DNA of 64,000 nucleotides from Candidatus Woesearchaeota archaeon CG10_big_fil_rev_8_21_14_0_10_45_16 (GCA_002762785.1 PCXY01000003.1:3317-67316), one strand, 5' to 3'; numbered from the stretch's first letter, positions 1,214-64,000 are shown. Notes: generated by a model from the letters alone, not told the origin. Program-made: numbers and translations.

Positions 1214-1569
1214 ATCTTGACGATCCTCCTGATGTTCAACGATAATTGCAGATAATGTTCTTCTCCCACGTTTTCGAATGAACCACGCATAGTTCCATCG
1301 ATCATACGCACTACACCATCATTACAAGCTCTCACCAAGTCGTCTTCCAACGATGGCTTCATATCAATGTAGATGCTCCCACAGATCTTATATCCTACTT
1401 CACCAGCGCCGTTCCTAAATCCAGTTGAAGCCTCTTCTCTTGGGGCTTGATCCAATAGCACATAATAACCTGCTCTTGAACGCGCAACATGGCCGAAGAT
1501 GGTTGTCTGGATACTATCTGTTCCAGAACTAAATTCTCTTAACGCTCTCACCAAGTCGTCTTTATCCAT
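1210..1569 (-). CDS. hypothetical 119-aa protein inside the decarboxylase/deoxyhypusine synthase operon
   Basis: Overlaps both neighbours (8 nt and 4 nt). Internal duplicated 'DDLVRA' motif. I recognise no AdoMetDC or PdaD signature. Confidence 0.5.
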   Translation of the reverse strand: MDKDDLVRALREFSSGTDSIQTTIFGHVARSRAGYYVLLDQAPREEASTGFRNGAGEVGYKICGSIYIDMKPSLEDDLVRACNDGVVRMIDGTMRGSFENVGEEHYLQLSLNIRRIVKI

Positions 1570-2503: not shown

Positions 2504-2667
2504 ATATTCACCAAAAACATCTCAAAACGAACCTAAACCTATAGTTTGAAAGAACTTAACTGCCTGCTTTACGGACGGTATCCATGGTGTGGTTATTCTT
2601 GACCCTATTTTTAAATGTTTCTTAGTTGATGGCTGATATGGAATCTTTGATTGACCTTGGTCGGAAG

Positions 2668-3156
2668 TTAAAACCGTCCTGTATCGTCCAAATAAAACTG
2701 TTTTAGTTTCTTTTGGATCGCATCCTCTAGAGATTTTATCCTGACAGCTTCAGGGTATCCGTCGCCATCACGATCTATTGCCAGAGCTTCTAACCTTTGA
2801 TCCCGATCATATGCATATAACTCCATATAATCTGGTTGGCCGTCACCTTCTCTGTCATAACTTACGCTTGTCGGCAGTCCTTGTCCGTCATATCTTACGG
2901 TCCAGATACCTTTAGGTTTTCCTTCAGCATCATATTGAAGCCTTTCAACTTGGTCAGTCCGGCCGTCGCCATCTTTATCTAATTCTGAAGAGATTTTTCT
3001 TCCATTATCATTATAAATATCACGAAGGGCCATTGTTATGTTTCCCTGAGTATCGTAGTTGATTATCTCCTCAGTCCTTTCGGTAGAATCACAGCCTAGG
3101 GCTAAAGCAGTTGTTAGATATAATGCTGGTTTTTTTAACATCTTTGTCAAGCTCAT
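2668..3156 (-). CDS. putative lipoprotein with three DxDGDG calcium-binding-type loops
   Basis: Signal peptide ending in the lipobox-like 'LALGC'. Repeats 'DKDGDGRTD', 'DREGDGQPD', 'DRDGDGYPE'. Confidence 0.6.
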   Translation of the reverse strand: MSLTKMLKKPALYLTTALALGCDSTERTEEIINYDTQGNITMALRDIYNDNGRKISSELDKDGDGRTDQVERLQYDAEGKPKGIWTVRYDGQGLPTSVSYDREGDGQPDYMELYAYDRDQRLEALAIDRDGDGYPEAVRIKSLEDAIQKKLKQFYLDDTGRF

Positions 3157-3180
3157 TTTAGGTCTTAAAAATGGCTTCTA

Positions 3181-3188
3181 CTTATAAA
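3181..3188 (-). promoter_or_regulatory. TATA box (TTTATAAG on minus strand) for 2668..3156
   Basis: 24 nt upstream of the minus-strand ATG at 3156. Confidence 0.5.
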
Positions 3189-3231
3189 TCTTTGCATATT
3201 GACTACTACGCAGTGATGAAGAAGGGAAAAG

Positions 3232-3239
3232 TTTATAAA
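3232..3239 (+). promoter_or_regulatory. TATA box TTTATAAA for 3262..4584
   Basis: 22 nt upstream of the ATG at 3262, giving leaderless geometry. Confidence 0.55.
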
Positions 3240-3261
3240 GAATGGCCGCTATGAGGTCAAT

Positions 3262-4584
3262 ATGAAAAGAGCAGAGGGAAGTAATACTCAAAAAGAACTA
3301 TTAAAAAGCCCTAGCCGTCGGCAGTTCCTGAAGACCTTAGGTATCGCTGCGGCTGTTGGCGCAACTACTAAATACGCTGCTGATGAGATTAGCGATTATG
3401 TTCTGGAAAAGATCCTTAAAGTTGAAGAAGAAGTCCGTGAGACAGTTCTTGATCTTAGAGAGTTTTATGGTACGGTGGATGCTAAACTGGCTGAACAAAG
3501 GAAATTATTGGAGAAAAATTATGGTTCTGCTTTAGATGGTCTACAAAAATTGGATATACTGGATGAAAAGGAGATCGCTGATTTTGAAAAACTAGTTGAT
3601 AATCTGGAAGATGTTGAAAGTCATTATGATTTTGCTGAGAGGGCAAGAATCTTAAAAGACAGGCTTGATCGTAGAATCTTAACTTTGGATACCGTTGTTG
3701 ACAGCTATAAACCTGGTTTCTGGCGTGGAGCTGATGATCTTATTAGGGAAGGTCTTGGCAGGCCATCTGGTGAACATGGAAAAAAATACCGTACAGCCGT
3801 TAAGAAAAGACTTGATGCGCTAAGCCAGATATATGATACCAACTCCGACAATAGGACTGCTGAAACTGCTGTCCTTGGCAAGATCAACGAATATCTGGCT
3901 GATGCGCCACGATTGACATCAGAAGAGAAAGGCCTTCTGTTGTTCCTTAAGGATCAGTATCAAAAACCAGGTGATAAAACTCATCTGAAGAAATTCATAA
4001 ATAACTATGAAGGCTTCAATGCACAGAAAGAGATGGTCCTTAATCTGCGAGCAGCTTTAGTGGAAGGAGAACAAACTTACGAACAGATCAGGAAGAACAA
4101 AGGCTATATGGTTGATCTCGGTCAGATGCTTCAGGATGGAATTGAATTGAAACAGAGGATCAGAGAGACAAATGCAGAAGATTGGATCTCTGGTCATAAT
4201 GAATATCAAAGTCATGCTGACCAATTGAAGAGTAAGGTTGTCCAGATGGTCGATCATCTTAAAGAAGAAGGCTATGATATCGAGACCAGAGATGATTTCA
4301 TCAACAAAGGCACCGTGACTGAAAGTATCGGAAAAGTGCTTTATCGGATCGGCACCATGGCCGCTTTGGCTACCGGCGCTCTGACTGTCTTATATAGGCG
4401 GAAGGGCGATAAGATACGGGCTAAAGAAGATGCTTTGGTAGAAGCCGCAGCTAAGATTGATGACCTGACCTCTAGGCTGCCTCAAGGCTATATCGGAGAA
4501 CCTTACAAAGCAGAAGATCCTCGGGGAGTAAGAAATGTTTTTAAAGACGCAGGAAAATTAGAGGTTTATAAAAATGAAAATTAA
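3262..4584 (+). CDS. Tat-signal, C-terminally anchored coiled-coil protein
   Basis: Twin-arginine motif 'SRRQFLKTLGIAAAVGA'. Long charged helical body. C-terminal hydrophobic 'IGTMAALATGALTVLY'. Confidence 0.6.
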   Translation: MKRAEGSNTQKELLKSPSRRQFLKTLGIAAAVGATTKYAADEISDYVLEKILKVEEEVRETVLDLREFYGTVDAKLAEQRKLLEKNYGSALDGLQKLDILDEKEIADFEKLVDNLEDVESHYDFAERARILKDRLDRRILTLDTVVDSYKPGFWRGADDLIREGLGRPSGEHGKKYRTAVKKRLDALSQIYDTNSDNRTAETAVLGKINEYLADAPRLTSEEKGLLLFLKDQYQKPGDKTHLKKFINNYEGFNAQKEMVLNLRAALVEGEQTYEQIRKNKGYMVDLGQMLQDGIELKQRIRETNAEDWISGHNEYQSHADQLKSKVVQMVDHLKEEGYDIETRDDFINKGTVTESIGKVLYRIGTMAALATGALTVLYRRKGDKIRAKEDALVEAAAKIDDLTSRLPQGYIGEPYKAEDPRGVRNVFKDAGKLEVYKNEN

Positions 4585-44200: not shown

Positions 44201-47200
44201 TTTCTCGGTAGGCGATCCTTTCTTCCCCAATGTCACTACTCTCATCCCCAGCAGCGGTTCGGTCTTTAGTCCTCAGGCTTTAGTAGAGATTGCTGCTAAT
44301 GTTACCGATAATGTTTTGGTCGATACAGTACTGGCTAATCTCACTTTTCCTAATGGGACGACTGAAACAATAACTCTGGCCAACGGAACCAATTATATCC
44401 ATAAGTATAATGTTTCCCTCAATGTTGGAAGACGGATCGGCAACTACTCTGTCCGTTTCATCGCTAATGACAGCAGCAACAATATCAATAGCACCGAGAC
44501 AACTTCTTTTACTGTTGTTGACAATGTTCCGCCTAATGTCACCGATCTGATCCCGGCTACCGGAAGCAATTTCAACCTTGGCGCTGTAAGTGTCATCCAG
44601 TTTTCGGCTAATATCAGTGATGATGTTTATATCTCGCAGTTTTATGCCAATTTGACCTATCCGAATGGCTCTCTCGAACAGTTTACTCTTAATAACAATA
44701 CTGGATTTTTCAACAAGTTCAACACTTCTTTTGCGGTCCCTGATAAGATTGGAACTTACACTCTCCGTTTCTTTGCCAACGATACCAGCAATAATAGGAA
44801 TAGCACCCAAATCACGACTTTCACGATCAGTGACGTAACTCCACCTAATGTCACCGATATCAAACCCGTCCAAAGCGGTAGCCATAATATCAGCAGTGTA
44901 GTCGAGATCTCTGTCAACGCTTCTGATGTCATAATTATCGACACGGTCTTAGCGAACATCACCTATCCCAACGGCTCTCAGGAAAAGATCTTTTTGAGCA
45001 ATAGCAGCGGCTACTTCAACAAGTTTAATGTTTCTTACATTGTTCCTAATGTTGTGGGAGTTATCAATATTACCCTTTTCGTCAACGATACCAGTGACAA
45101 TCTTAACTCTACAGAATTTACAAATTTTACGACCAATGATGGAACCAGGCCGAAAACGAGCGTTCTTATCCCTCCTCCGGGCAGCACTTTTGCCCAGAAC
45201 ACGAATGTTTCCATCACGGTCAACGTCACTGACAACATCGCTGTCTCTACGGTAGTTATCAACGTGACCCTGCCTAACGGAACAAGACGGCAAAGTACTC
45301 TTACTGACGCTGACGCTGACGGTCTTTACTACTTTAACTTCACCGAAACTCCTGACACCGGATCTTATAACATCAGGGTCATCGCTAATGACACTAACGA
45401 TAATATTAATAGGACTACTACTAGAATCTTCAATGTTCAGGATAATAATAATCCTATCGTCAACCTGATCTCGCCGGCTGATGAAGCCGTTGTCACCGCT
45501 CTTCCAGTCACTTTCAGATGCAACGCTACAGATAATACAGCTTTAAGCAACATCACTTTATATCTTAATGTCACTGGCGTCTTTGCAGCGAATCAGACAA
45601 TTGCTGTTAACGGCACCAACAACCAGACTAATTTCAGCGTCTCATTGGATGATGGCAATTATATCTGGAACTGCCTGGCCCTGGATGAAGGCGGCAACCC
45701 TTCATTTGGCTCAGCTAACTTCACAGTCAGCATCAACACCTTGCCGCCGGCCGTCACGCCGCTCAGTCCCGCAAATGGCAGCACATTTAACATCACCGAT
45801 ACGGTCAACATCACTGCCTTGGTGACGGATTCGTTTGTCATCAGCAGGGCCGTAGTCAATGTCACTCTTCCCAATGGCAGCATCCAGCAGATCCCCCTTC
45901 AGGATGAGGAAAGCGATTCAACTTACAATGGCACTTTCCTTATCCCTAATAAGATCGGAGCTTATACTATCCGTTATATAGCCAACGATACTAGCAAGAA
46001 CACCAACAGCACCGAGATAGTCTCTTTCACTGCTGTCGATCCCTTCCCGCCAAAGGTCACCGATCTGCGGCCAGTCCAGAACAGCACCTATAACCTCAGC
46101 AACACCATCGAGATCTCAGCCAATGTCTCAGATACTATCTTCGTAAGCCTGGTCTCGGCTAACATCACTTTTCCAAACGGCACCATCCAGGAACTTACAT
46201 TAAGCAACAGCACTGGCTACGGCAACAAGTTCAACTCTTCATTCACCATCCCGCAATTGGTCGGAAACTATTCGGTCTTGTTCATCGCCAACGATACCAG
46301 CAACAATTTTAACTCTACAGAGACCGTCAACTTTACGGTCAATGATGTTCTTGCTCCTAATGTCACTCTCAACACTCCGTTGAACAATACCAATACTTCC
46401 AGCGCCTCTGTAATATTTAACATCACTGTCGCTGACGATGCTCTTACTGCTTTAACCTGTAATCTTTACATCAATTCAACGTTGAATCTCACCAATGCAT
46501 CTGTCGTCGACGGCGTCACTCAGTTTGATATCCCTCTGATCGAAGATGGACCTCACAGCTGGTACGTCAATTGCACAGACGCCTCCGGCAATTTCAACAC
46601 TACTGGTTCTCGTGTCTTTACTGTAGATACACAATTACCGCAGTTCAACAACTTTACTACTTCTCCGAATTCGGAAGCTGATCTCGATCCGGATGTGAAC
46701 GTCACCGTCTTCGCCGGCGTAACTGATAATGTTACTGGGATAAACACCGTGATCTTACAGAGAAAACTAAGCAATGATACGGATGCCAGCTACATCAACG
46801 TCACGATGACCTACAATCCTTTTACAGGATTATATAACGCTTCATTCAATGCCACCCAAAACGGCACCTATAACCTTCGCCTGTTTGCCAATGACACCGT
46901 CGGCAACCGGGAAGTCAGTACTTTAGTCAATATCTCCGTACAATTAGACCGCAACTGGACTCGGAGTCCAGGAACATTCACGGTCGTTACGGCCACGGCC
47001 AGCCAGAACGTGACCGTCGGCAACCTCACGATCAATAACACCGGTGACTTCCCTTTCGTGTTTACGATAGTATCTAACTCGTCCACGACCAGATACAATG
47101 AGACCGAGAATTTCACCCTGGCGGCCGGCCAGGTCAAGTTCCTAGCTATCAATGAGACGGCTCCTCTCGGTGGACTTAAAGTCTTTACCCTGAACATCAG

Positions 47201-50200
47201 TGTCAATGATACAGCAGCCACTCCCTATTCCCAGATATCTACCGGTTCGGTCTTGGTGGCCGGCAACCAGCCGGTGCTTTCGGCTAGTTTCACTACACCT
47301 AATGCGGAGACTAGGCAGGTGACACAAGGCAACACCGGAGTGGCTTTTGTTGCCACATTGACCAATATAGGGATAGGCAATGCTACTAATGTTACTTTTA
47401 CGATAACCTTGCCTAGTGAATGGACGATCACTTTTGGAGACCCTAACCTTACTGTCGGCAACCTTAGTTCAGGTGAAAGCGCAGAGATCAGCCTGGAAGT
47501 GACCATCCCGGCTGACGCAACGATAGGAACATTTACCGTTCTTGCTAATGCTACTGGTAATAATGCGACCAATGGCAGCCTGAATGGGGCAGGTTTGATC
47601 TTCAGTGATTCCGTCGCCGTTACCGTCAATTCTGCTACGACTATCGGTGGCGGTGGCGAACCTACAAGTGGTAGCGGCGGCGGTCCTACGCCTTCCGGAA
47701 CTGCTCCTTCAGGCGGCGGTGGTGGCGGTGGCAGCAGCGGACGCGTCACCAAAGGAACTTTAGGCGGCCAGAGCGAGACCATCGAGACAGTCGATGAGTT
47801 TCTGGTGCCTCGCGGCACGGGCGCATCGACACATTTCACGGTAAGAAACCTCTGGCAGAACGCTTTCATGGAGAACATCGATCTTAAAGTGAGCGGTTTC
47901 CTGGAGAGTTATGTTATCATCTCCCCCGAACTGAACCGCAACCGGGTGGTCGAAGTCAAAGCTGTTTCACATACGCCGCAGTTATTCGAGCTTCCAGGCA
48001 TCGGCTTCCATACCCTCACTGTTGATGAGCTGAAATTTGAAAAAGTAACTGTAACTATCGAGTCTGAACCGCAGGTGCTTGACCTGAAGACCGGCCGTCT
48101 TCGTTATGTTGATCTGGACGGCGATCATTTCGGTGATATCGCTTTGGAACTGGAAGAGATCGTCGGCGAGGAAGCGCAATTAAACATCTATCCGGTCAAG
48201 GATTATGAAAACAGGAGATTGGCCTATGGTGAGAGCTTGAATTATTCACTCGATGTTTATGCCCCGTCATATCTGACCCAGAAAGATTATCAGGTGGATC
48301 TGCAGATCGAGTCGACACTGACGCCGCTGAACGCTACTCAAGCTGGTTTCACCCAGAAGGTGATCACAGAACTTCGCACGCTGCTGTTCAAGATCCAGGG
48401 GGCCGATGCCGAACTAGCGCAGAGTAAGCTGAACCTGGCTCGTGAGATGGTCCAGGAGATGTATGATGCTTCGTTCAATGCCGTCGAGGTCCAGGATCTG
48501 CTGCTTCAGGCTGAGGCAGCTTTTGAAGAGGCTGATTACGATCAGGTGCTGGCTCTAGGTGAGAAGATCACCGAGATCTATGATGATGCTTTCGCCGCTG
48601 CCGAGATCATCACCTTAGTCAAACAACAACAGCAGGATGCTAAAGACAGATGGCTGGGCACGCCGCAGACCGATGAAGCGCTGGGCCTGGCTCAGGTCGC
48701 TTTTGAACGCGGTGATTATGACACAGCTTTGGAACGGGCCAAGAATGCCCAGCTAGTCGCTGTCCTGGAGATAAAAGGAAAAGTGAATGTCATCAAGTTC
48801 GTGATCGATTGGTGGTGGGCTTTGCTTCTGGCAGTTCTGGTCTTGTCTGGGCTGCTGTACTTTGTCTATAAGAGAAGTGTCATCTTTACCATAGAACACC
48901 GTCTCAAGAACTTAACAAAGGAAGAAGATACTCTTCATGAGCTGCTGGAAGAGACACAGAAAAAATATTTCCAGGAAAAATCGCTTTCGGATCAGCAGTA
49001 TCAGCGTTATGTCTCTGAATATCAGAAGCGTCTGGCATCTATTGGCCAGATCCGGGCTAAGCTCCGCAATAAAAGAGTAAAGATACTCAAGACTGAGCAG
49101 GAGCTGCTGAGCATCAAGAAAGAGAAGGATGAGGTTGAAGGACTGTTAAAGAAAAATCAGAAAGATTATTTTATCGATAAGAAATTTGGTTCACAGCGTT
49201 TCAAAGAGAACGAACAGCTTCATAAGACCAGGTTAGCTGAGATCGATAAGGAAGAAGCGATCCTTGAAGAGAAGTTATCTCGCAAGATGGACCAGCGCGG
49301 CTATAAGCTTCTGGAGAGATTCAGACGCCGGAAAAAAGAGGAAGAGAAACTGGCTCTGCAGCCTGAAGCGGCTGTTGAGACTGAACAGGTGGTCGCGCCG
49401 CAGCAGGAACGTGATCTGGGTAAGAAAGATGTGGAAGAAAAGCCAGTCCAGAAGAAGAAAAAGAAGAGACGGTTCTGGCATAAGAAACGGCGGAAAGAAG
49501 AGGAAGTATCGGAAGAGAAAGAACCAGGAGAGAAAGAACCTAAAACTGACAAACAGGATACAGCTGAAGAGACAGCGGAAACAGCCGAACCAGGAAAAGA
49601 AGTTGAGCCTGAAGAGAAAAGTGGTGATGCTGAAGAAAACAAGTCTCTCGAGGAAAAGGATGCATCTCAAAAACACTCCTCTCAAAAACACTCCTCGCAG
49701 AAGCAATCTCCAAAAAATAAAGAAGATTCTAAGAATGAACCTGAGAAAGAGCATACAGAAAAAAAGCCTAACGAAAAATTATCTAAGTCTAAATGGTCGG
49801 GTGGTAGGCATAAATCGGATCATAAAAGCCAGAAGCATGGAAAATCACCAAATATCCTTCCCCTGCTGATCTCGCCGCAGCCTGAAAGCTCCCGGCCTGA
49901 AGAGACAAGGAGAAAAGCCAAGTATGTCGTCCCTATCGACCAGCCCGCTGGCCATAAACCTCACGAACACCATCCAGCGAAGGCTTCTCGTCGGGCCGTC
50001 GATACCACTATCCTGATGAATATGTTCGATCAGCCTTCCGGCAGGTCGTCCTCTGCTCAGTCATCCTCTTCAAAAGATATCCGCAGCCAGTTTGCAGCTT
50101 TTGAACGCGGCGAGATCTCGCTGTCTCGTAGATTCCGTAAAGATGTTGATCTAAAAAGTACCAAAGATGTCCCTTCACCGTTGAGAGGATCAACTGCGAG

Positions 50201-55279: not shown

Positions 55280-56938
55280 ATGGAAGAATTCAAAAAACTG
55301 GGTCTTTCTGAAAATGTTATTGCTGCTTTAAAGAAGAAAGGGTATGTAACACCGACGGAAATCCAGCAGAAAACTATACCGGTCTTATTAGAGGGTAAAC
55401 TAGATCTTATCGCTCAATCACAGACCGGGACGGGTAAGACGGCCAGTTTTGCTATTCCTATCATCGAGAAAGCAAAAGAAAATTCTAAACACGTTCAAGC
55501 TATCATCCTTACTCCGACCCGGGAATTGGCCCTTCAGGTCTCTAAAGAGATCGAATCATTGCGGGGGCAAAAGAGGCTGCGTGTACTTGCAGTATATGGC
55601 GGGACGTCGATGAATGATCAGATCCAGAAATTGCGTCAAGGTATCGATATCGTGGTTGGAACTCCAGGAAGGGTGATCGATCAGATTAAACGCAGGTTTC
55701 TTGATCTTTCTCAAGTATCATTTACAGTATTAGATGAAGCTGATGAGATGTTAAACATGGGTTTTCTGGAAGAGATTGAAAAAATCTTGGAAAACACTAA
55801 TCCGCATCAAAGAATGCTTTTATTTTCAGCTACTATGCCAAAACCGATCCAAATGATCGCTAAGAAGTTCATGAAAGAACATCTCTTCCTAAAGATCGAG
55901 AATAAACAATTGACCATCGGGTTGACCGAACAGGTTTATTATGAGGTAGCCTCTTCAGATAAGTTTGAAGCGCTGCGCCGAGTGATAGATATCAGTGATG
56001 AGTTCTATGGCATCATATTTTGTAAGACCAGAGTTGAGGTTGACATCCTCACCAGACAGCTGATCGATAAGAATTACAGCGCTGCCGGAATCCATGGAGA
56101 TATCTCTCAAGAACAGAGAGAAAAAGTTTTAAGCTTGTTTAGAGCTAAGAGAGTTAATATCCTAATCGCAACTGACGTTGCGGCCCGCGGAATAGATGTC
56201 AATGACTTGACTCATGTTGTAAATTATTCTTTGCCTCAAAATCCAGAATCTTACGTCCATCGAATCGGTCGAACTGGTCGGGCTGGTAAAAGTGGGATGG
56301 CTGTAACTTTCATCATCCCTTCTGAAAGAAATAGATTAAGATTTATTGAAAAAATTGCTGGCGGTGAGATGAATAGAAAAGAATTGCCTTCTATCAATGA
56401 AGTTATCGCTTTTAAGAAAAAACATATCAGACAGACAGTTGAGCAATATTGTCAAGCTGGAACTTCCGGGTCATATGAGGAGATCGCGAAGGAAATCCTT
56501 ATTAGCAATACTCCAGTTTCAGCTCTGGCTTCTGTGTTAGAATTGGCGTTTAAAGCAGTATTAAATCCTCAGAATTATAAAGAACTTCGAGGGGTCAATG
56601 ACAGCCATCGGACTTCACGGAAAGGAAAGAAAGATTCATTTGGTCAAAATTATCGCAAACAGAGATCAGACCGTGATGGTGGATTTGGTTCACGAAATAA
56701 GAGGACTGATGATGGTCCTCGATTCGATTCCAGAAAGTCTCGTCCTGATAGTGGTAAACGGTTTGATTCTAAGAAGCCTCATTCTGAAGGTCCTAGGTTT
56801 GATTCCAGAAAACCACGTTCTGAAGAAGGTCAAAGATTCGATTCCAGAAAGTCTCGTCCTGATGGTGGCAAACGGTTTGATTCTAAGAAATCGTTCTCTG
56901 GTGGAAAGAAAAAATCATTTAAATCGTTTAAGAGATAA
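55280..56938 (+). CDS. DEAD-box RNA helicase with C-terminal RFDS(R/K)K repeat tail
   Basis: 'AQSQTGTGKT', 'PTRELA', 'DEAD', 'SAT', 'HRIGRTGRAG'. The tail has six 'RFDS[RK]K' units. About 55 nt are duplicated near 56716-56771 and 56836-56891. Confidence 0.9.
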   Translation: MEEFKKLGLSENVIAALKKKGYVTPTEIQQKTIPVLLEGKLDLIAQSQTGTGKTASFAIPIIEKAKENSKHVQAIILTPTRELALQVSKEIESLRGQKRLRVLAVYGGTSMNDQIQKLRQGIDIVVGTPGRVIDQIKRRFLDLSQVSFTVLDEADEMLNMGFLEEIEKILENTNPHQRMLLFSATMPKPIQMIAKKFMKEHLFLKIENKQLTIGLTEQVYYEVASSDKFEALRRVIDISDEFYGIIFCKTRVEVDILTRQLIDKNYSAAGIHGDISQEQREKVLSLFRAKRVNILIATDVAARGIDVNDLTHVVNYSLPQNPESYVHRIGRTGRAGKSGMAVTFIIPSERNRLRFIEKIAGGEMNRKELPSINEVIAFKKKHIRQTVEQYCQAGTSGSYEEIAKEILISNTPVSALASVLELAFKAVLNPQNYKELRGVNDSHRTSRKGKKDSFGQNYRKQRSDRDGGFGSRNKRTDDGPRFDSRKSRPDSGKRFDSKKPHSEGPRFDSRKPRSEEGQRFDSRKSRPDGGKRFDSKKSFSGGKKKSFKSFKR

Positions 56939-58911: not shown

Positions 58912-59211
58912 ATGGTCTTTAAAGGTTTCAAAATTTTTCTTAAAGAATACCGAATCATAGCTGTCTCGGTCGCGTTCATCGTCAGCTTGGCTTCTTTAAG
59001 TTTCATCCAATCCTTTGTCAATGATATCCTTCTGCCCATTCTCAGACCGTTTGTTTCAAATAGCGCTACCTGGGAAGAGATGATCCTTCCGATAGGTTCG
59101 GTCAACCTTAGGGTCGGTTCTTTTTTAAGCTCATTCCTGAGCCTTTTGATCATCCTGATCCTTCTTTATGTAGTCGTTGCCAGGATCCTACGCTGGAAGC
59201 CTAAGAAATAG
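58912..59211 (+). CDS. mscL: large-conductance mechanosensitive channel MscL
   Basis: 'FKIFLKEYRIIAVSVAFIVSLASLSFIQSFVNDILLPIL' matches the MscL TM1 region. A second TM and a basic tail follow. Confidence 0.65.
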   Translation: MVFKGFKIFLKEYRIIAVSVAFIVSLASLSFIQSFVNDILLPILRPFVSNSATWEEMILPIGSVNLRVGSFLSSFLSLLIILILLYVVVARILRWKPKK

Positions 59212-59258
59212 TTAGATCCATGTTTATGTGAAAAAACTTTGCTGGGACGACGTTTGCG

Positions 59259-59340
59259 AATTAAGCTTAACGATGTTCCCAGACTTTATATGCAGGTCGT
59301 AGCAACGAAGAAGCGGAGAAGTTTGTTTCTTGCCGTACAA
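59259..59340 (+). repeat. island repeat copy R1 (most diverged)
   Basis: AATTAAGCTTAACGATGTT...CGTAGCAACGAAGAAGCGGAGAAGTTTG. Confidence 0.7.
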
Positions 59341-59432
59341 AAGACCTGTGCCGTTCTTTAAAATTATCTTGGTGTTATAGTTTTAAGAAGAGGGACTTAA
59401 GAATCATTTTTGTCGTAACTCCCGAGTAAAGA

Positions 59433-59440
59433 TTTATAAG
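59433..59440 (+). promoter_or_regulatory. TATA box TTTATAAG
   Basis: 22 nt upstream of ATG 59463. Confidence 0.5.
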
Positions 59441-59462
59441 TGGGGCTGTTTTCCAGAAAGAT

Positions 59463-60542
59463 ATGGGTAATTTAGAAGAAGCAATTAGTAGATCTGCAGT
59501 TTGTACTCTTCCCATTGATATCCCTATGAATTCTTTTAATTCTCTTACTTTTCTAGATAGACTTTCTGATGTGGCAAGAAGAATGGCTTACAGCGAAGAG
59601 GAAACAGTACATGAGAAACAAGGTAATGTAGCAAAAAGATTATATGGTTTATTAGAGGCAATACAACACCAAGTTGTTCCTCCATATCATCAAAAAAGTA
59701 AGCCAAGACGTACTCTTCCTGCTCTTATTGAAGAAGTGCCTGACGATATTGATGTAAATGTAAGTGGTAATATTGGCATTATTCTTCCTCAACTGTTTAG
59801 GTGGGTTGGATCTACACCAGAAAAATTTGCGGTAAGTGTTGTTGGTCCAAAAGAAGTTTATGATAATTTTGAAGGAGAAGTTTTCTTTGCTGAAGAATTA
59901 AATAATCAAGTTGTAGACATATCGCTTTTAGGTGGAAAAGCAAGTGGCGCTTTCCTGAATGGGCCATACTTTTCTGCAGACACACAAAAATGGTTCTATA
60001 ATAGATTAGTTGGGAAAAAATCAGGAAAGTCACATGAGTGGGGATATGTCTTAGAGCAGGCAGGAGATGATTACGACTGGTCTCAACACTTATTAGATAT
60101 TAATCTCAAAAGAGGTCCGTATAATTATGCAATTGATATGGGTGCTTTCAGGGACGATGAATTAAGAAAGAAATTTTCAGAAGCACAAAATAAAGAATTA
60201 CAACCATTCTTATATAATATTCGGGTTGGTGCTCATTGGCTAGATAGTGAAAACAGTATTGTGTCATCCCCCAAAATTGACATTTACAGAGATGATGGTC
60301 AAGGTGTTATTTTAATCAAATTATCAATTGATAACAATAAACTATTTGATACAGAACCGTTATCATTTCTATATCAACGTCTCTTGCCTCAGAATCTACT
60401 TCAAGTAGCTCTTAGTCAACATAGGCAGTATTTAGCTGATACATCCGATAGTCCTGCTAATTATGAAAGTGCTCTTAGAAGATATACTGCTCTTGAGAGA
60501 ACTGTTTCTTTAGGAGAACAAGAAGAGTTTATTGTTCATTAG
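59463..60542 (+). CDS. hypothetical 359-aa protein (island)
   Basis: AT-rich ORF with its own TATA. No recognisable domain. Confidence 0.55.
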   Translation: MGNLEEAISRSAVCTLPIDIPMNSFNSLTFLDRLSDVARRMAYSEEETVHEKQGNVAKRLYGLLEAIQHQVVPPYHQKSKPRRTLPALIEEVPDDIDVNVSGNIGIILPQLFRWVGSTPEKFAVSVVGPKEVYDNFEGEVFFAEELNNQVVDISLLGGKASGAFLNGPYFSADTQKWFYNRLVGKKSGKSHEWGYVLEQAGDDYDWSQHLLDINLKRGPYNYAIDMGAFRDDELRKKFSEAQNKELQPFLYNIRVGAHWLDSENSIVSSPKIDIYRDDGQGVILIKLSIDNNKLFDTEPLSFLYQRLLPQNLLQVALSQHRQYLADTSDSPANYESALRRYTALERTVSLGEQEEFIVH

Positions 60543-60712
60543 AATAGGTAGCTTGCTTTTTTCTTAAGTCCCTTACATTTTGATTAGTTGTCAGAGTTTA
60601 CACATTAAAGGCACAGGTCAAGTTCAGGTGATATAACTTCCTCGTTAATGGAACAAAAAACCAGAATTTTAGCGAAAGATTTAAATAAGTAGGCAATTAC
60701 AAAGACATTACA

Positions 60713-60961
60713 ATGGTAATGGATACAATACAAATAAGGTTAAGTCATGGTTTAGTAGATAGGATAGATGATTTAGTAAATACGGGAATTTATGCAAATA
60801 GGTCTGATGCGATTAGGGATGGAGTCAGACGGTTAATTTTAGATAAACAAATTGGTTCAATCCCTAATGCTGGCGACTCTGTTAAAGAAGTTAGAAAAAT
60901 CAGAGCTAAATTGTCTAAAGAGAAATTTGATCTAGATGAAATTAATAAATTAGCTGAGTAA
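60713..60961 (+). CDS. ribbon-helix-helix (CopG-family) protein
   Basis: 'IQIRLSHGLVDRIDDLVNTGIYANRSDAIRDGVRRLI'. TATA TTTAAATA at 60680-60687. Confidence 0.7.
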   Translation: MVMDTIQIRLSHGLVDRIDDLVNTGIYANRSDAIRDGVRRLILDKQIGSIPNAGDSVKEVRKIRAKLSKEKFDLDEINKLAE

Positions 60962-61375
60962 CTCTTCTGGTTTAAAAACTTCAATGTGTTTTATTGCAAA
61001 ATCCATTAAGTCTTTATCTCTTGTGATTAATGGAACGTTTAATCTTTTTGCAATGGCAACATGGAGATAATCGTAAAAGCTAATTTTAGAATTTTCTTCG
61101 TCTTCAAATTTTCTTGCTAAATCATAATCCTCTTGTATTGTTTTAATAATCTTAACAAATTCAGTATCTTTAAAGAATTTCAATTTTTCTTCAAATTGAT
61201 CTTCAAGTTTGTAAGACAATTCTTTAAGAACTATTGTTGAAATTATTAATCGATTATTCAGTTCAAGAAAATCTTTCGCTAATTTCCAGTACGGCACCCC
61301 TTTGGTTGGATCTCCTTCTTTCTTGAAGAGATTAAGCCAGATGCAGGAGTCGACGTAGTAGGTTTTTTGTGCCAT
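60950..61375 (-). CDS. PIN-domain nuclease (VapC-like)
   Basis: Acidic residues in PIN spacing: 'YYVDSCIW', 'LKELS', 'FYDYLHVA', 'LITRDKD'. Confidence 0.7.
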   Translation of the reverse strand: MAQKTYYVDSCIWLNLFKKEGDPTKGVPYWKLAKDFLELNNRLIISTIVLKELSYKLEDQFEEKLKFFKDTEFVKIIKTIQEDYDLARKFEDEENSKISFYDYLHVAIAKRLNVPLITRDKDLMDFAIKHIEVFKPEELLS

Positions 61376-61438
61376 ACCTAAATTATTGGGAAGTTCTACT
61401 TAATAAAGTTAATTAAAATGGCTCCGAAGACTTATTGG

Positions 61439-61516
61439 ACTTAACGATGTTATGCAAGGGAGACTTTATGTCTCCCTCGTAGCACGTAGTGCGGAGCAAG
61501 TTATGACGCAACAGCC
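61439..61516 (+). repeat. island repeat copy R2
   Basis: ACTTAACGATGTTATGCAA-GGGAGAC-TTTAT-GTCTCCC-TCGTAGCACGTAGTGCGGAGCAAGTTATGACGCA. Confidence 0.85.
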
Positions 61517-61558
61517 ATTAAAAAGATTTTTAAAAGATTCTCTCATTTTTCTTTTTTA

Positions 61559-62029
61559 ATGTCATTAGAAGCAACTCTTGATGGATTGAAAGAAGATGCA
61601 CACGCTTTAGGTAGATTTTACTCAAAAGATTTTGGAGCACATTTAACTGGAATCCAAGCAAGTGGTGAAGTATATTTGCATGAGCCAACTGCTGAAAGAA
61701 AAGAAAGAATGGAAAGTGATTTAGAAATTATTAATGATTTTTATGAAACAATTCCATTTGATGAATTATTAGGTGATGAAAGATATGATCCTCTTTTTGT
61801 TGTAAATAGTTTGTTACCTAAAGTTAAAGAAAATATGAGTTTATTTTTTGATAATCCAACAGAAGCAACTTATCAAGATTTATTTTTGGTTTGTAATGCT
61901 GTTCATGAAGTTGGTTATCTTTATAGAGGATCTTTTGATGATGCATTAGAGAAAGTCCATGCCCATCCAGAAGGTCGTGATTTTAGGATACAACTGGTTG
62001 GAATTACGGGCACGGAGTGGGATTATTAA
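61559..62029 (+). CDS. hypothetical acidic 156-aa protein (island)
   Basis: ORF with a TATA-like TTTTTAAAAG 23 nt upstream. Confidence 0.5.
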   Translation: MSLEATLDGLKEDAHALGRFYSKDFGAHLTGIQASGEVYLHEPTAERKERMESDLEIINDFYETIPFDELLGDERYDPLFVVNSLLPKVKENMSLFFDNPTEATYQDLFLVCNAVHEVGYLYRGSFDDALEKVHAHPEGRDFRIQLVGITGTEWDY

Positions 62030-62193
62030 TGACTGTGAGTAATATTCTGCTTAACGGCCCTGTTAGTTTCGTCTGACCAACGGGAAGACCTAAAATTTAG
62101 TGCAACGTTCCGAAGGAAAATTTTAGAGTTTTTGAGTCAGCCGTATATCTAGAACAAAGTTCAATATAATAAAAGAATAAAGGGCAAGAATTG

Positions 62194-62508
62194 TTATTTT
62201 TCCTCGTCTCTACAAATATATTTAATTGCTTTAATATTTTGATATATTGTTCCAGCATATGCTCCTGCAATTTCCATAGCTTGTACTATTTGTTCTGAAT
62301 TACCCAAAGAGAGACCCATACTCTCGTGCAAGGATGATCCTCCAGTAAAGTATGGAGCAATTAATGAATCAATTCCTAAAACTAATGAACCACATAAAGC
62401 AATTTTCTTTGGAGTAGACATCTGTTTATAGTGAGTTGTAGGTTGATTTAAACTCCCTGCAATTGTTCCTCCAACATAGAGATGTTGTAATAGATTGAAT
62501 AGGCTCAT
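62194..62508 (-). CDS. hypothetical 104-aa Gly-rich protein (island)
   Basis: ORF with TATA (ATTTAAATAC on the minus strand, 62531-62540) ~23 nt upstream. Confidence 0.45.
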   Translation of the reverse strand: MSLFNLLQHLYVGGTIAGSLNQPTTHYKQMSTPKKIALCGSLVLGIDSLIAPYFTGGSSLHESMGLSLGNSEQIVQAMEIAGAYAGTIYQNIKAIKYICRDEEK

Positions 62509-62606
62509 ATCACTTAATAAGAAGGAGCAAGTATTTAAATCTTTTGGCCGATTAGTCTTTTATGGGTAGTAACAATTCACGCCCAATCGTTAAATAGGCT
62601 GACTTG

Positions 62607-62685
62607 AAAATTAAACTTAACGATGTTATGTCGTGGGGACTTTATGTCCCCAGCCGAGCGTTAGCGAGGAAGTTTTCTTCCACCG
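62607..62685 (+). repeat. island repeat copy R3
   Basis: AAAATTAAACTTAACGATGTTATGTCGT-GGGGAC-TTTAT-GTCCCC-AGCCGAGCGTTAGCGAGGAAGTTTTC. Confidence 0.85.
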
Positions 62686-62726
62686 AACATACAAGGATTA
62701 GCACCAAAATTTCTAATGATTATTTT

Positions 62727-63416
62727 TTATGGAGAATAAGCAGCAGTTCTTTCATTTAGACTAGCACTAATAGTAATAGCACTCTCAAATTCTTCTCTAT
62801 GGGGGGCTAATACATCCCCTAGAACTTTTCCTAAAGCAAATTCGTGTTGATCAAAGGCATACTCACGAACCCCATGTAATGGAAAATGTTCTCTTGGTTT
62901 TTCTAAGGATCTATACATTCCCTCTGCTAGTCTAAATGTGAGACTCATGTCTCTTAAGGAGGATAGTGCTTTTTGTGCTTCTCTTTCTCTTTTTGCAACA
63001 TCTAATTCTCCTCCGTAAAGAAGAGTTGATTCTATTGCTCCAATAACAACCTGAGAAAATTTTTGAGCTGTTTCGTAGGCAGCAAGTTCATCAGTTCCAA
63101 ATTCATATTCTCTTGGACAAAAATTTTCATTTGCTAGAACTGCTGCTAAATCTCTACCTGCAAAATCAAATAATGTGGATATTTCTGAAGCACCGCCTCG
63201 TCTAAATAATTGATGTATTCCACCAGCCATTAATTGTGTATAGTCTGGTGCTTCTTGTCCTTGGGCCGCGTAAAGAATTCTAGCTTGAACAGCTACAAAG
63301 CCCATTACAAATGTTTCTCCTGAGACTTGCATTTTCAGGTAAGAAATATCCTCATTAATAAATGTTACTACTTTAAAATAAGATTTTGCAGAATCAAGAA
63401 CAGGGAAAGGTGCCAA
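62727..63416 (-). CDS. hypothetical 229-aa protein (island)
   Basis: The ORF starts at a TTG. An alternative ATG at 63332 has TTTATTAA ~22 nt upstream. Confidence 0.45.
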   Translation of the reverse strand: MAPFPVLDSAKSYFKVVTFINEDISYLKMQVSGETFVMGFVAVQARILYAAQGQEAPDYTQLMAGGIHQLFRRGGASEISTLFDFAGRDLAAVLANENFCPREYEFGTDELAAYETAQKFSQVVIGAIESTLLYGGELDVAKREREAQKALSSLRDMSLTFRLAEGMYRSLEKPREHFPLHGVREYAFDQHEFALGKVLGDVLAPHREEFESAITISASLNERTAAYSP

Positions 63417-63466
63417 TCCTAAAAAATGTTTAATTATGGCGTTAGCGTCATCAAAATAGGTGGAAG

Positions 63467-63555
63467 AAAATTAAGCTTAACGATGTTAAGCAGGGGGGGA
63501 CTTCATGTCCCCCTCGTAGCACGTAGTGCGGAGAAGTATGACGCAGGGAGCCACG
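63467..63555 (+). repeat. island repeat copy R4
   Basis: AAAATTAAGCTTAACGATGTTAAGCAGG-GGGGGAC-TTCAT-GTCCCCC-TCGTAGCACGTAGTGCGGAGAAGTATGACGCA. Confidence 0.85.
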
Positions 63556-63611
63556 TTCTAACACATAGTTTTACAGAATAAAGCGTAAGCAATAAAAGGG
63601 CATTTTTTTCT

Positions 63612-64000
63612 TTAGTTTTTAATAATAGAAATGAGTTGATTGATATAATCTTCAATGTTATTGATATTTTCTACTCTAATAATTCTATCTGACATATGTT
63701 CCAGCATCAAAGGAATTTCTGTCGTATCTTCTGCAAGTAAGATTATTGGTTTATTACTCCCATAAGAAAAACCAACTTCCCCTCCCCAATTAGGTGAAAC
63801 ATTTAAGGCAACTCCGAGGATTTTTTTACTATTGTTAATTCCGTTAATGTTTTGTGAGAATTTCTCATTTGATTCCCCATTTTGATTGGTGTCTCTTTGA
63901 GGTAAATGACAACTAATTCCTCTTCGTTCTAATTCTTCACATAATTTAGGATTAAATGACACATTCCAGTCATTATGAAGTGTTGATGTAATAAAGACGT
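63612..64000 (-). CDS. nucleoside 2-deoxyribosyltransferase-like protein, N-terminus beyond the window
   Basis: 'NWGGEVGFSYGSNKPIILL' resembles the NDT-family D/E-G-T-x-x-E-x-G-x-A...KP-V motif. The frame stays open upstream of the GTG at 63962 (..VFITSTLHNDWN..) to base 64000. Confidence 0.4.
   Translation of the reverse strand, partial: VFITSTLHNDWNVSFNPKLCEELERRGISCHLPQRDTNQNGESNEKFSQNINGINNSKKILGVALNVSPNWGGEVGFSYGSNKPIILLAEDTTEIPLMLEHMSDRIIRVENINNIEDYINQLISIIKN

What the first reader, a model, noticed from the sequence alone, without database searches (positions are those of the whole stretch)
59259..63555. Four same-orientation copies of a ~80-nt repeat with a covarying hairpin separate the genes of the terminal island
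Copies at 59259, 61439, 62607 and 63467 share the layout AAAATTAAGCTTAACGATGTTA.GC, then a 6-7 bp hairpin, then CGTAGCACGTAGTGCGGAG.AAGT.ATGACGCA.
- The hairpin differs between copies by compensatory changes: GGGAGAC/GTCTCCC, GGGGAC/GTCCCC, GGGGGAC/GTCCCCC. Pairing is therefore selected, not just sequence.
- R4 also carries a perfect GCTTAAC-GAT-GTTAAGC palindrome.
- All four copies point the same way on the chromosome, although the flanking genes are on both strands. That argues against a gene-linked UTR or terminator and for directly repeated recombination sites, or a propagating element.
- Units between copies are 0.9-2.2 kb, which is cassette-sized.
- Read on the minus strand, each copy ends in GTTAAG(C/T), which fits the integron R' core GTTRRRY. 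R1, next to conserved mscL, is the most decayed copy, as expected for the distal end of an array.
- Against a classical integron: I cannot fold a full R''-L''/L'-R' attC, most island genes have their own TATA box, and no integrase is in the window (it would lie beyond 64000).

This could be a new archaeal cassette or recombination-site family, a MITE, or a small-RNA family.
Basis: partly seen in the sequence, partly recalled or inferred. Interest (0 to 1): 0.78.

Follow-up and report, generated by a model that had tools for sequence, protein, structure and literature searches.

The report
Integron-like gene cassettes in Woesearchaeota
The four repeats are the worn far end of a chain of at least twelve mobile gene cassettes, each closed by a folded recombination site of about 100 bases; this gene-capture system works like a bacterial integron but uses a different site and a Xer-type recombinase, is common in DPANN archaea, and I found no published description of it.

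Summary
Four same-strand copies of an 85-nt element lie at window 59253-63551, and the source contig carries nine more beyond the window end.

The element bounds discrete gene units:
- Two 899-nt units in this array are 93-94% identical exactly from core to core.
- The same units occur in other genomes next to different neighbours.
- The start of a unit is complementary to the end of the same unit. This gives a 9-3-9 palindrome and a 12-17 bp unit-specific helix. The rejoined ends fold into a four-way junction, and three of its four helices covary (closing helix, hairpins B and C).

About 150 copies occur in some 60 Woesearchaeota/Nanoarchaeota loci.

A search starting from the neighbouring tyrosine recombinase returned 45 sites. 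All lie upstream of the gene and on the opposite strand. A distinct attI-like site sits next to the gene. Related genomes show this platform both empty and occupied, with the breakpoint at |GTTATG.

The recombinase scores as XerA and lacks the integron-integrase insertion. The site is not a canonical attC.

Verdict: an integron-like cassette system of a new variant. The recombinase for this particular array lies off the contig. Whether recombination uses single-stranded DNA is inferred, not shown.

The parts
59253..59337 (-). Site copy R1. It is the last (distal) site of the array, next to mscL. The core TAAC-GAT-GTT is kept, but hairpin B and the left half are decayed.
   Evidence: Covariance model hit of 52.7-52.8 bits. 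The alignment shows the loss of the hairpin.
61427..61516 (-). Site copy R2. The core lies at 61440-61451 and hairpin B at 61458-61476 (GGGAGAC TTTAT GTCTCCC). It carries the sub-family box ATGACGCA.
   Evidence: Covariance model hit of 64.9 bits. Sequence read; fold.
62603..62688 (-). Site copy R3. The core lies at 62616-62627 and hairpin B at 62634-62652 (TGGGGAC TTTAT GTCCCCA).
   Evidence: Covariance model hit of 80.8 bits, the best in the window. Fold.
63463..63551 (-). Site copy R4. The core lies at 63476-63487, with a 7-3-7 palindrome GCTTAAC GAT GTTAAGC. Hairpin B lies at 63495-63513 (GGGGGAC TTCAT GTCCCCC).
   Evidence: Covariance model hit of 67.4 bits. Fold.
62673..62684 (.). One strand of the unit-specific closing helix P1 of unit 3 (TTTTCTTCCACC). 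It pairs with 63459-63470.
   Evidence: A 12-bp perfect run, found only between the two ends of the same unit (L001 9568-10428; fold).
63459..63470 (.). The other strand of helix P1 of unit 3 (GGTGGAAGAAAA). It lies 2 nt from the 9-nt arm of R4.
59338..61426 (.). Unit 1, between R1 and R2. It holds a 359-aa ORF with no family match (59463-60542 +), an RHH gene (60713-60961 +) and a PIN gene (60950-61375 -). It is probably two fused units, because the PIN/RHH part is a stand-alone unit of about 900 nt in other arrays.
   Evidence: ORFs. Pfam families. The PIN/RHH part matches stand-alone units in L029, L046 and L078 at 69-81% identity.
61517..62602 (.). Unit 2, between R2 and R3. It holds a 156-aa ORF (61559-62029 +) and a 104-aa ORF (62194-62508 -). 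Neither has a family match.
   Evidence: An interrupted 8-bp closing helix appears in the fold.
62689..63462 (.). Unit 3, between R3 and R4. It holds a 229-aa ORF (62727-63416 -) with no family match.
   Evidence: The same unit lies on a Logan contig, L002.
63552..64000 (.). The start of unit 4, cut by the window end. It holds a nucleoside 2-deoxyribosyltransferase-like ORF. The array runs on for nine more sites on the contig.
   Evidence: L001 1-9051.
58912..59211 (+). mscL, the first ordinary chromosomal gene. It marks the distal border of the array.
   Evidence: Pfam MscL. GC content steps down after it. The flank genes rSAM, DnaJ and DEAD have homologues next to a last site in L079, L035 and L070.

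Best explanation
The four repeats are recombination sites that bound mobile gene cassettes in a chromosomal array of a Woesearchaeota-type (DPANN) archaeon. The window holds the oldest, partly decayed end of that array.

**Anatomy of a unit**
- A unit starts with GTTAWGYNN-AA, followed by a 12-17 nt unit-specific sequence.
- It carries one to four genes, in either direction.
- It ends with the complement of that specific sequence, then a small hairpin A (loop about TAC), hairpin B (a 7-bp stem that differs between units, loop RTRAA), the arm NNRCWTAAC, and ATC.
- When the two ends are joined, as in an excised circle, one strand folds into a four-way junction. Its arms are the closing helix P1, hairpin A, hairpin B and a 9-bp hairpin C with the triloop ATC.

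**Proposed mechanism (inferred)**
- A Xer-family tyrosine recombinase acts on these sites. Its gene lies at the other end of such arrays, facing away from them.
- It exchanges strands within the GTTA that follows ATC.
- It inserts circles at a distinct platform site (GSWTATA-N4-GTTAWR) next to its own gene.
- New units therefore enter next to the recombinase, and old ones drift to the far end.
- Only the sequence to the right of the crossover is shared between platform and unit sites. The likely route is therefore exchange of one strand pair on folded or single-stranded DNA, resolved by replication. Integron attI x attC and CTX-phi integration work this way.

**Shown and inferred**
- Shown: the array, the unit borders, the folding constraints, the recombinase linkage, the platform site, and the empty and occupied states of the platform.
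- Inferred: catalysis by this recombinase, the circular intermediate, and the single-stranded substrate.
For: 1. **The array.** There are 13 one-way copies on the contig and none in the other 59 kb.
2. **Discrete units.** Two 899-nt units in the same array are 93-94% identical exactly from TAACATCGTTATG to the next ...CATAACATCGTTATGC, with unrelated flanks. A PIN/RHH unit is 90% identical to a unit in another metagenome's array (L085). Homology starts at the core, and none of the neighbouring L001 units has a match in L085.
3. **Own-unit complementarity.**
   - Over 73 units, the right half at a unit's start pairs with the left half at the same unit's end.
   - Pairing at positions 1-9 is .97 1 1 .99 .82 .96 .89 .79 .86. 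For the halves that are neighbours in the array it is .97 1 1 1 .60 .88 .60 .36 .41.
   - 0 of 2000 shuffles reach the observed value.
   - Within arrays, 65% of own pairs are perfect 9/9 against 4% of non-own pairs. Own exceeds non-own in 14 of 14 loci, and 0 of 5000 within-locus shuffles reach the observed value.
4. **Closing helix P1.**
   - 40 of 73 own units have a perfect run of 8 bp or more (typically 12-17). Among non-own pairs, 8 of 454 do.
   - In 37 of those 40 the run starts 2 nt after the arm.
   - Duplex energy is -14.4 kcal/mol for own pairs against -6.7 for non-own, p = 8e-24.
5. **Covariation.** RNAalifold on 27 rejoined sites predicts P1, B and C. Of 29 pairs, 25 have compensatory changes, 93% of cells pair against 62% when shuffled, and 0 of 500 shuffles reach the observed value. 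Hairpin B alone pairs in 96.3% of cells over 145 copies.
6. **DNA rather than RNA.** Wobble pairs are not enriched. In hairpin B, GT+TG number 12, AC+CA 16 and other mismatches 21, out of 1013 cells.
7. **Recombinase linkage.**
   - In 4 genome loci the recombinase lies to the left of the first site on the opposite strand.
   - A separate search starting from the protein returned 80 loci carrying 45 sites. All 45 are on the minus strand and upstream of the gene, and none is downstream.
8. **Platform site.**
   - The own-unit rule predicts a 9-mer from the first site. In 12 of 15 loci where it could be tested, that 9-mer is found with 0 mismatches between the gene and the first site.
   - It always follows GSWTATA-N4 there, without ATC and without hairpin B.
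   - The platform is conserved in about 40 loci.
9. **Empty and occupied platforms.** The same element X follows the platform directly in L121, L122 and L113. In L102 and L101 it follows the last unit site. The breakpoint is exactly at |GTTATG.
10. **Family assignment.** The recombinase has Phage_integrase and SAM_4 domains. Its best NCBIfam model is XerA (221-232 bits, cut-off 220).
Against: - No recombinase gene lies on this contig. It ends inside the array, 153 nt before the first site.
- With this covariance model, only about half of the recombinase loci that have at least 3 kb upstream show sites. Some have variant sites and some seem empty.
- Two of the three complete units in the window break the own-unit rule for the 9-nt arms (5 of 9 positions). 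Unit 1 has no closing helix. The window itself therefore shows the system only in decayed form.
- ORFs run mostly against the site direction (82 against 49). This is unlike integrons.
- Nothing here shows catalysis, circles or single-stranded intermediates.
- All data come from metagenome assemblies.
Confidence: 0.78

Rival explanations
1. The recombinase is the cell's housekeeping XerA, and the platform site is the chromosome's dif. On this view the array is a pile-up of small elements that exploit Xer (IMEX-like), not a dedicated gene-capture platform.
For: - The recombinase passes the XerA equivalog cut-off. It is as close to solved XerA structures as to VchIntIA.
- Recombinases with and without arrays are not separated by identity to the query.
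- From my own knowledge, the core resembles bacterial dif arms (GCATAA ... TTATGTTAAAT).
- Some platforms are empty.
Against: - The platform is a weak palindrome, with 4 of 7 arm positions matching by eye. It has extra conserved parts over about 85 nt. A dif site is a simple 11-6-11 repeat.
- Archaeal dif is a single site that is not next to xerA (PMC2958812). Here the gene and the site are always adjacent.
- Units are non-autonomous 0.3-3.8 kb gene cassettes, each with an elaborate structured site.
- I could not check whether a second xerA or a separate dif exists in these genomes.
Confidence: 0.17
2. [quoted passage not shown]
For: - Integrons and CALINs are known in Nanoarchaeota (PMC9668308).
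- The site has AAC ... GTT cores and a crossover compatible with G|TT.
- Toxin-antitoxin and unknown-function genes are typical cassette cargo.
Against: - Only 3 nt separate the paired cores, so there is no L box between them.
- The crossover lies next to the hairpin tip, not at the base of the structure. About 25-30 nt of the structure belong to the start of the unit.
- The recombinase lacks the IntI insertion. TIGR02249 scores 192-206 bits against a cut-off of 265, split into two stretches.
- Six array contigs tested are absent from the published contig lists.
Confidence: 0.02
3. This is a MITE or small transposon family with terminal inverted repeats, which inserts in tandem and leaves ATC as a target-site duplication.
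For: Each unit has terminal inverted repeats of 9 + 12-17 nt and is flanked by ATC on both sides.
Against: - The repeats differ in sequence between units and are conserved only in pairing. A transposase could not read them.
- There is no ATC at the platform junction.
- There are no copies outside the arrays.
- All copies point one way.
- The only conserved neighbouring enzyme is a tyrosine recombinase.
Confidence: 0.02
4. This is an RNA-level element, such as a small RNA, a 3' UTR stabiliser or a terminator repeated between genes.
For: - Stable hairpins lie between genes.
- T-rich tracts lie on both sides.
Against: - No Rfam family matches.
- There is no G-U excess on either strand.
- The site direction is fixed, while the flanking genes run both ways.
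- Helix P1 and the outer pairs of hairpin C form only between sequences 0.3-3.8 kb apart on the chromosome.
Confidence: 0.01

Closest known systems
Bacterial integrons (IntI, attI, attC), especially sedentary chromosomal integrons
   Same: - A one-way array of small cassettes next to a divergently placed tyrosine recombinase gene.
- A distinct platform site beside that gene.
- Cassette sites conserved in fold rather than in sequence, except for AAC/GTT cores.
- A crossover compatible with G|TT.
- A cassette start that is complementary to the same cassette's own site.
- Toxin-antitoxin cassettes and much cargo of unknown function.
- Sites that are similar within a lineage.
   Different: - The site folds as a four-way junction (P1, A, B, C) with the crossover next to a triloop tip. 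An attC is a single R-box/L-box hairpin cut near its base.
- About a quarter of the site lies at the start of the cassette.
- The recombinase lacks the IntI-specific insertion and scores as XerA.
- Cassettes often hold several genes, mostly facing the recombinase.
Integrons and CALINs reported in Archaea (Ghaly et al. 2022, PMC9668308)
   Same: - Archaeal hosts, including Nanoarchaeota/Woesearchaeales.
- Arrays that are mostly found without an integrase on the same contig.
   Different: - Those were found with HattCI and IntegronFinder. They have the canonical attC fold and IntI with the extra domain, and some are 95-100% identical to bacterial attCs.
- The contigs found here are not in their lists.
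Xer/dif and elements that exploit Xer (CTX-phi, TLC-phi, gonococcal island). This entry rests on my own knowledge plus PMC2958812.
   Same: - A Xer-family recombinase.
- A core with dif-like arms.
- Tandem accumulation at one site.
- For CTX-phi, a folded single strand as substrate and exchange of a single strand pair.
   Different: - The units are gene cassettes, not phages or islands.
- The site is 9-3-9 plus three further helices, not 11-6-11.
- The gene and the site are adjacent, unlike archaeal xerA and dif.
- There are tens of sites per genome.
pdif modules of Acinetobacter plasmids (my own knowledge)
   Same: Small gene modules, including toxin-antitoxin pairs, bounded by Xer-type sites.
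   Different: - pdif sites alternate in orientation and are plain 28-bp sites.
- Here all sites are direct and structured.
Single-recombinase Xer systems XerS/difSL and XerH/difH (my own knowledge plus the listing)
   Same: A single recombinase whose gene lies next to its site.
   Different: Those have one site per chromosome and no cassettes.

Membership tests
Integron | An integrase of the IntI type, carrying the IntI-specific extra domain near patch III. | tested here: not met
   TIGR02249 scores 192-206 bits against a cut-off of 265 and matches in two stretches. The alignment to VchIntIA (2a3v) skips IntI residues of about 180-244. This was tested on recombinases of related arrays, because none lies on this contig.
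Integron | Paired cores RYYYAAC / GTTRRRY with the crossover at G|TT, and a cassette start that is complementary to the cassette's own inverse core. | tested here: met
   The cores are RCWTAAC / GTTAWGY. The crossover is confined to the GTTA that follows ATC. Own-unit complementarity holds.
Integron | The attC architecture: one imperfect hairpin R''-L''-loop-L'-R' of 55-141 nt, with an L box and extrahelical bases between the cores. | tested here: not met
   Only ATC lies between the cores. The fold is a four-way junction, and helices A and B lie 5' of the left core.
Integron | A recombinase gene placed divergently next to an attI and the array. | tested here: met
   This holds in 22 related loci. 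It cannot be tested for the window's own array, because the contig ends first.
Integron | Sites recognised by the attC covariance model (IntegronFinder / HattCI). | not testable with these tools
   The model is not available here. The only indirect evidence is that six array contigs tested are absent from the published archaeal integron lists.
Xer/dif with IMEX | A recombinase that is a Xer family member. | tested here: met
   NF040815 recomb_XerA_Arch scores 221-232 bits against a cut-off of 220.
Xer/dif with IMEX | A plain 11-6-11 imperfect palindrome, one per chromosome, at the replication terminus and, in Archaea, not next to xerA. | tested here: not met
   The core is 9-3-9 with extra helices, and there are many copies. 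The platform is only weakly palindromic and is always next to the gene (PMC2958812). The terminus position could not be tested.
Xer/dif with IMEX | The recombinase is the host's sole housekeeping Xer. | not testable with these tools
pdif modules | Flanking sites in alternating (inverted) orientation. | tested here: not met
   All 13 sites on the contig and all 45 recombinase-linked sites are direct.
MITE / TIR transposon | Dispersed copies, sequence-conserved terminal repeats and a target-site duplication. | tested here: not met
   There are no copies outside the array. The repeats are unit-specific. There is no ATC at the platform junction.
Structured RNA family / tRNA-derived att repeat | A match to a known RNA model, or RNA-type covariation with G-U pairs. 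| tested here: not met
   Rfam gives 0 hits and ARAGORN gives 0. Wobble pairs are not enriched.

The most novel reading that the evidence does not exclude
Woesearchaeota and related DPANN archaea carry a second, structurally distinct kind of integron.
- It is a dedicated gene-capture platform in which a XerA-like recombinase lacking the IntI domain recombines a single-stranded site that forms a four-way junction.
- It may be either an independent invention or a living intermediate between Xer/dif and the bacterial integron.
- Current integron finders do not detect it.
Probability: 0.55. Interest if true: 0.92.

Novelty: new variant of a known kind. Interest (0 to 1): 0.85.

Why it matters
- Integrons are the classic example of site-specific gene capture, and their origin from Xer-like recombinases is unresolved. 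This system has integron logic: a platform, folded cassette sites, a G|TT-type crossover, toxin-antitoxin cassettes, and empty and occupied platforms. It is built from a Xer-type enzyme and a different DNA fold.
- It occurs in many genomes of host-dependent archaea with small genomes. In such organisms a store of exchangeable genes could matter greatly.
- It offers a direct test of how structure-specific recombination sites evolve.
- It gives a simple sequence rule, own-end complementarity, for finding more such systems.
- It means surveys that rely on the attC model undercount cassette arrays in Archaea.

Tried and rejected
**Readings of the element that were tested and dropped**
- tRNA or tmRNA origin of the repeat: ARAGORN found none.
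- Known RNA family: Rfam found none.
- A canonical attC fold for the 85-nt element as it stands in the array: folding gives only separate hairpins. The closing helix appeared only after rejoining a unit's own ends.
- Viral carriers: an exact-pattern scan of viral contigs found nothing.

**Attempts to reach this array's recombinase end**
- Look-ups of window proteins returned only the same arrangement, or contigs that also stop.
- A contig of 0.2-1 Mb exists, but it was collapsed as a 'similar place' and could not be read.
- A homologue search with the left-most unit gene did not extend the contig. It did show that the gene is an ordinary chromosomal gene elsewhere.

**Other tests that were uninformative or limited**
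- Pairing between the platform's left side and the distal flank: the duplex predictions were uninformative.
- Synteny of the array flanks: only weak.
- Literature: seven searches found no description of this system. The library holds open-access papers and bioRxiv only.

**Caveats on particular results**
- The bacterial hits in the genome scan score 21-22 bits and are chance. About 17 were expected from the pattern's information content (my own estimate).
- The 27 rejoined sites were picked by eye from 44. Decayed sites and sites of the second sub-family were left out.

Full report
**1. Checking the observation**

The 12-mer CTTAACGATGTT occurs exactly four times in the window, at 59266, 61440, 62616 and 63476. 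All four are on the + strand, and there is no other exact copy in 64 kb. A covariance model built later finds exactly four full-length copies with all filters off. They lie at 59253-59337, 61427-61516, 62603-62688 and 63463-63551, and score 52.8 to 80.8 bits. The next hit scores 12 bits. R1 has lost the hairpin. GC content drops from about 45% to 33-36% in the island. There is no tRNA and no Rfam family in the window.

**2. The array is larger than the window**

The window is part of a 76-kb ENA contig. The 9 kb beyond position 64000 carry nine more copies in the same orientation, and the contig ends 153 nt before the first of them.

- Cargo genes include PIN/RHH and ParE toxin-antitoxin pairs, two methyltransferases, a kinase-like protein, an S66 peptidase, an AAA kinase, and several ORFs with no family match.
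- No recombinase gene lies on the contig.

From here on I read the element on the window's minus strand (the + strand of locus L001). In that orientation it runs:
- an upstream box, nnnAAAA-CTTC
- a small hairpin A
- hairpin B, a 7-bp variable stem with loop RTRAA
- NNRCWTAAC - ATC - GTTAWGYNN - AAT...

**3. The copies bound discrete units**

- Two 899-nt methyltransferase units in the same array are 93-94% identical from TAACATCGTTATG to the next ...CATAACATCGTTATGC. Outside that span they are unrelated.
- A PIN/RHH unit is 90% identical to a unit in an array from another metagenome (L085). Homology begins at the core, hairpin B upstream of it is different, and none of the neighbouring L001 units has a match in L085.
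- Many other units are shared between loci at 67-100% identity.

**4. A widespread family**

An exact-pattern scan of one genome per species returned the capped 80 stretches. Most come from Woesearchaeota, Nanoarchaeota and Pacearchaeota MAGs. The covariance model finds about 150 strong full-length copies in about 60 of these loci. The few bacterial hits score 21-22 bits and are chance.

- Hairpin B pairs in 96.3% of cells over 145 distinct copies. All seven pairs covary, and 0 of 500 shuffles reach the observed value.
- Units have a median length of 1.13 kb (range 311-3830) and hold 0-4 ORFs.
- 49 ORFs run with the site direction and 82 against it.

**5. The two ends of a unit belong together**

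In the array, the variable position of the palindrome pairs in only 56% of copies. The right half at the start of a unit is instead complementary to the left half at the end of the same unit.

| Comparison | Pairing at positions 1-9 |
|---|---|
| Own unit (start with own end) | .97 1 1 .99 .82 .96 .89 .79 .86 |
| Array neighbours | .97 1 1 1 .60 .88 .60 .36 .41 |

- 0 of 2000 shuffles reach the observed value.
- Within arrays, 65% of own pairs are perfect 9/9 against 4% of non-own pairs. Own exceeds non-own in 14 of 14 loci, and 0 of 5000 within-locus shuffles reach the observed value.

Rejoining a unit's end to its own start also reveals a long closing helix, P1, between the upstream box and the sequence that begins 2 nt after the right arm.

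- 40 of 73 own units have a perfect run of 8 bp or more (typically 12-17). Among non-own pairs, 8 of 454 do.
- Duplex energy is -14.4 kcal/mol for own pairs against -6.7 for non-own, p = 8e-24.
- With a fixed register taken from the model alignment, positions 2-13 pair at .46-.72 for own pairs against .24-.52 for non-own.

RNAalifold on 27 rejoined sites, a hand-picked subset, predicts three helices by itself: P1 (13 bp), B (7 bp) and C (9 bp). Of 29 pairs, 25 show compensatory changes. 93% of cells pair against 62% when shuffled.

The rejoined site is therefore about 100-110 nt and folds as a four-way junction. Stems B and C abut without a linker. Wobble pairs are not enriched on either strand. 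The pairing is therefore selected in DNA, not in RNA.

**6. The recombinase**

Clustering the ORFs of the genome loci gave a tyrosine recombinase in four archaeal loci. In each it lies to the left of the first site, on the opposite strand.

- It has Phage_integrase and SAM_4 domains.
- It just passes the XerA equivalog cut-off, at 221-232 bits against 220.
- It misses the integron-integrase model, at 192-206 bits against 265, with the match split where IntI carries its extra domain.

A separate search that started from the protein returned 80 metagenome loci. The site model finds 45 sites in 18 of them. All 45 lie upstream of the gene and on the opposite strand, and none lies downstream. Many contigs break 100-700 nt upstream of the gene. 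In 12 of 18 cases checked by hand, the break falls within about 150 nt after the platform site. That is what variable content after the platform would cause.

**7. The platform site and the crossover**

The nearest model hit lies 0.8-2.5 kb from the gene. The own-unit rule predicts which 9-mer should start the first unit. In 12 of 15 loci where it could be tested, that 9-mer is found with no mismatch between the gene and the first site.

- It always follows GSWTATA-N4 there.
- That junction has no ATC and no hairpin B (the same holds in L032).

The platform is a conserved stretch of about 85 nt. It contains further half-site-like motifs and a small covarying hairpin. Because ATC travels with the preceding unit and GTTAW... 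with the following one, the crossover lies within GTTA. That is compatible with the integron G|TT.

Related genomes show the platform both empty and occupied. Element X (GTTATGCGTAATTTTTTATTTGCC...) follows the platform directly in L121, L122 and L113. In L102 and L101 it follows the last unit site. The breakpoint is exactly at |GTTATG.

**8. How it most likely works**

The shown facts fit the integron scheme.
- Circular units carrying a folded site are inserted at the platform by the adjacent recombinase.
- Arrays grow at the recombinase end and decay at the far end.

The window matches the far end. R1 is the weakest copy, two of the three units break the arm rule, and unit 1 looks like two fused units.

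Platform and unit sites share sequence only to the right of the crossover. Exchange of a single strand pair followed by replication is therefore the simplest route. This step is inferred by analogy with attI x attC and with CTX-phi, from my own knowledge. Helices that can form only in a rejoined or single-stranded unit argue for a folded substrate. Which strand is used, and whether the substrate is a circle, is unknown.

**9. Comparison with known systems**

- **Integron in the strict sense:** it is not one. There is no IntI domain and no attC architecture.
- **Plain Xer/dif:** it is not that either. The site is not a simple 11-6-11 repeat, the gene is next to the site, and there are tens of sites.
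- **pdif modules:** excluded, because all sites are direct.
- **MITE:** excluded, because there are no dispersed copies and the repeats are unit-specific.
- **Published archaeal integrons:** these use canonical attC and IntI. Six of the contigs found here are absent from their lists.
- **Literature:** seven searches found no description of this system.
- **Main open rival:** the recombinase may be the housekeeping XerA and the platform the chromosome's dif. I could not test this without whole genomes.

**10. Verdict**

I rate it a new variant of a known kind, an integron-like cassette system, with high interest.

The caveats are:
- All evidence is comparative.
- All sequences come from metagenome assemblies.
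- The recombinase of this particular array was not reached.

Noticed in passing
L121 9452-9781 (minus strand); L102 5147-5270; L101 2753-2873; L063 7400-7523: Element X is a non-coding stretch of about 125-250 nt that starts GTTATGCGTAATTTTTTATTTGCC. It is 97.6% identical between L121 and L102, although their recombinase genes are only 67% identical. It sits right after the platform or after the last unit. Why it is so conserved is unknown.
   Followed up: partly
About 42 nt upstream of the recombinase genes, for example L032 about 820-850 and L088 9701-9813: The motif TTGTCCAGTG is conserved in front of most recombinase genes. It sometimes occurs twice, 85 nt apart. It may be a regulatory or accessory binding site.
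   Followed up: no
Window 61497-61516 (R2) and 63531-63551 (R4); L069, L032 and L070 sites: A sub-family of sites has two extra conserved boxes between helix P1 and the junction: TGCGTCATAAC on the 5' side and AATTATTACTCRG on the 3' side. They pair only partly, and the first contains a second CATAAC motif.
   Followed up: partly
L098 upstream region; L115 3186-9709; L117 2061-8136: The centre of the palindrome differs between lineages. It is ATC in most and GTC or AAC in L098. L115 and L117 have an 8-4-8 variant with AACT. Sites and recombinases therefore seem to co-vary.
   Followed up: partly
Window 60713-60961 (+) and 60950-61375 (-); L001 6485-6925 and 6917-7174: The PIN and RHH genes in the units are convergent and overlap by about 12 nt at their 3' ends. 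This is an unusual layout for a toxin-antitoxin pair. It recurs in seven loci.
   Followed up: no
L177-L180 (gene at 10001-10537 in L177): A 71%-identical homologue of the AAA-kinase unit gene (L001 245-793) is an ordinary chromosomal gene next to fibrillarin/Nop genes in other Woesearchaeota. This hints that unit genes are recruited from related chromosomes.
   Followed up: partly
Window 56684-56889: The DEAD-box helicase gene (55280-56938) ends in a 114-nt tandem repeat that encodes a basic RFDSRKSRPD..GKRFDSKK tail.
   Followed up: no
L001 3062-3373 and three other units: Four of 73 units have no ORF of 60 aa or more. One is a 311-nt unit on the window's own contig. These are empty or non-coding cassettes.
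   Followed up: no
13 loci, for example L011 1515-2276 and L082 4295-5005: A TrmB-family regulator of 236-254 aa recurs in or beside the arrays. It runs in the same direction as the sites in 12 of 13 loci, often next to a divergent multi-gene block.
   Followed up: partly
Window 46000-48000: Cumulative GC skew reaches its minimum here, about 12 kb from the array. This could mark a replication landmark, or it could merely reflect gene orientation.
   Followed up: no
L047 359-1315: One chance pattern hit fell inside a genuine bacterial integron integrase gene (Pseudohongiellaceae). It served as a handy IntI comparator.
   Followed up: yes
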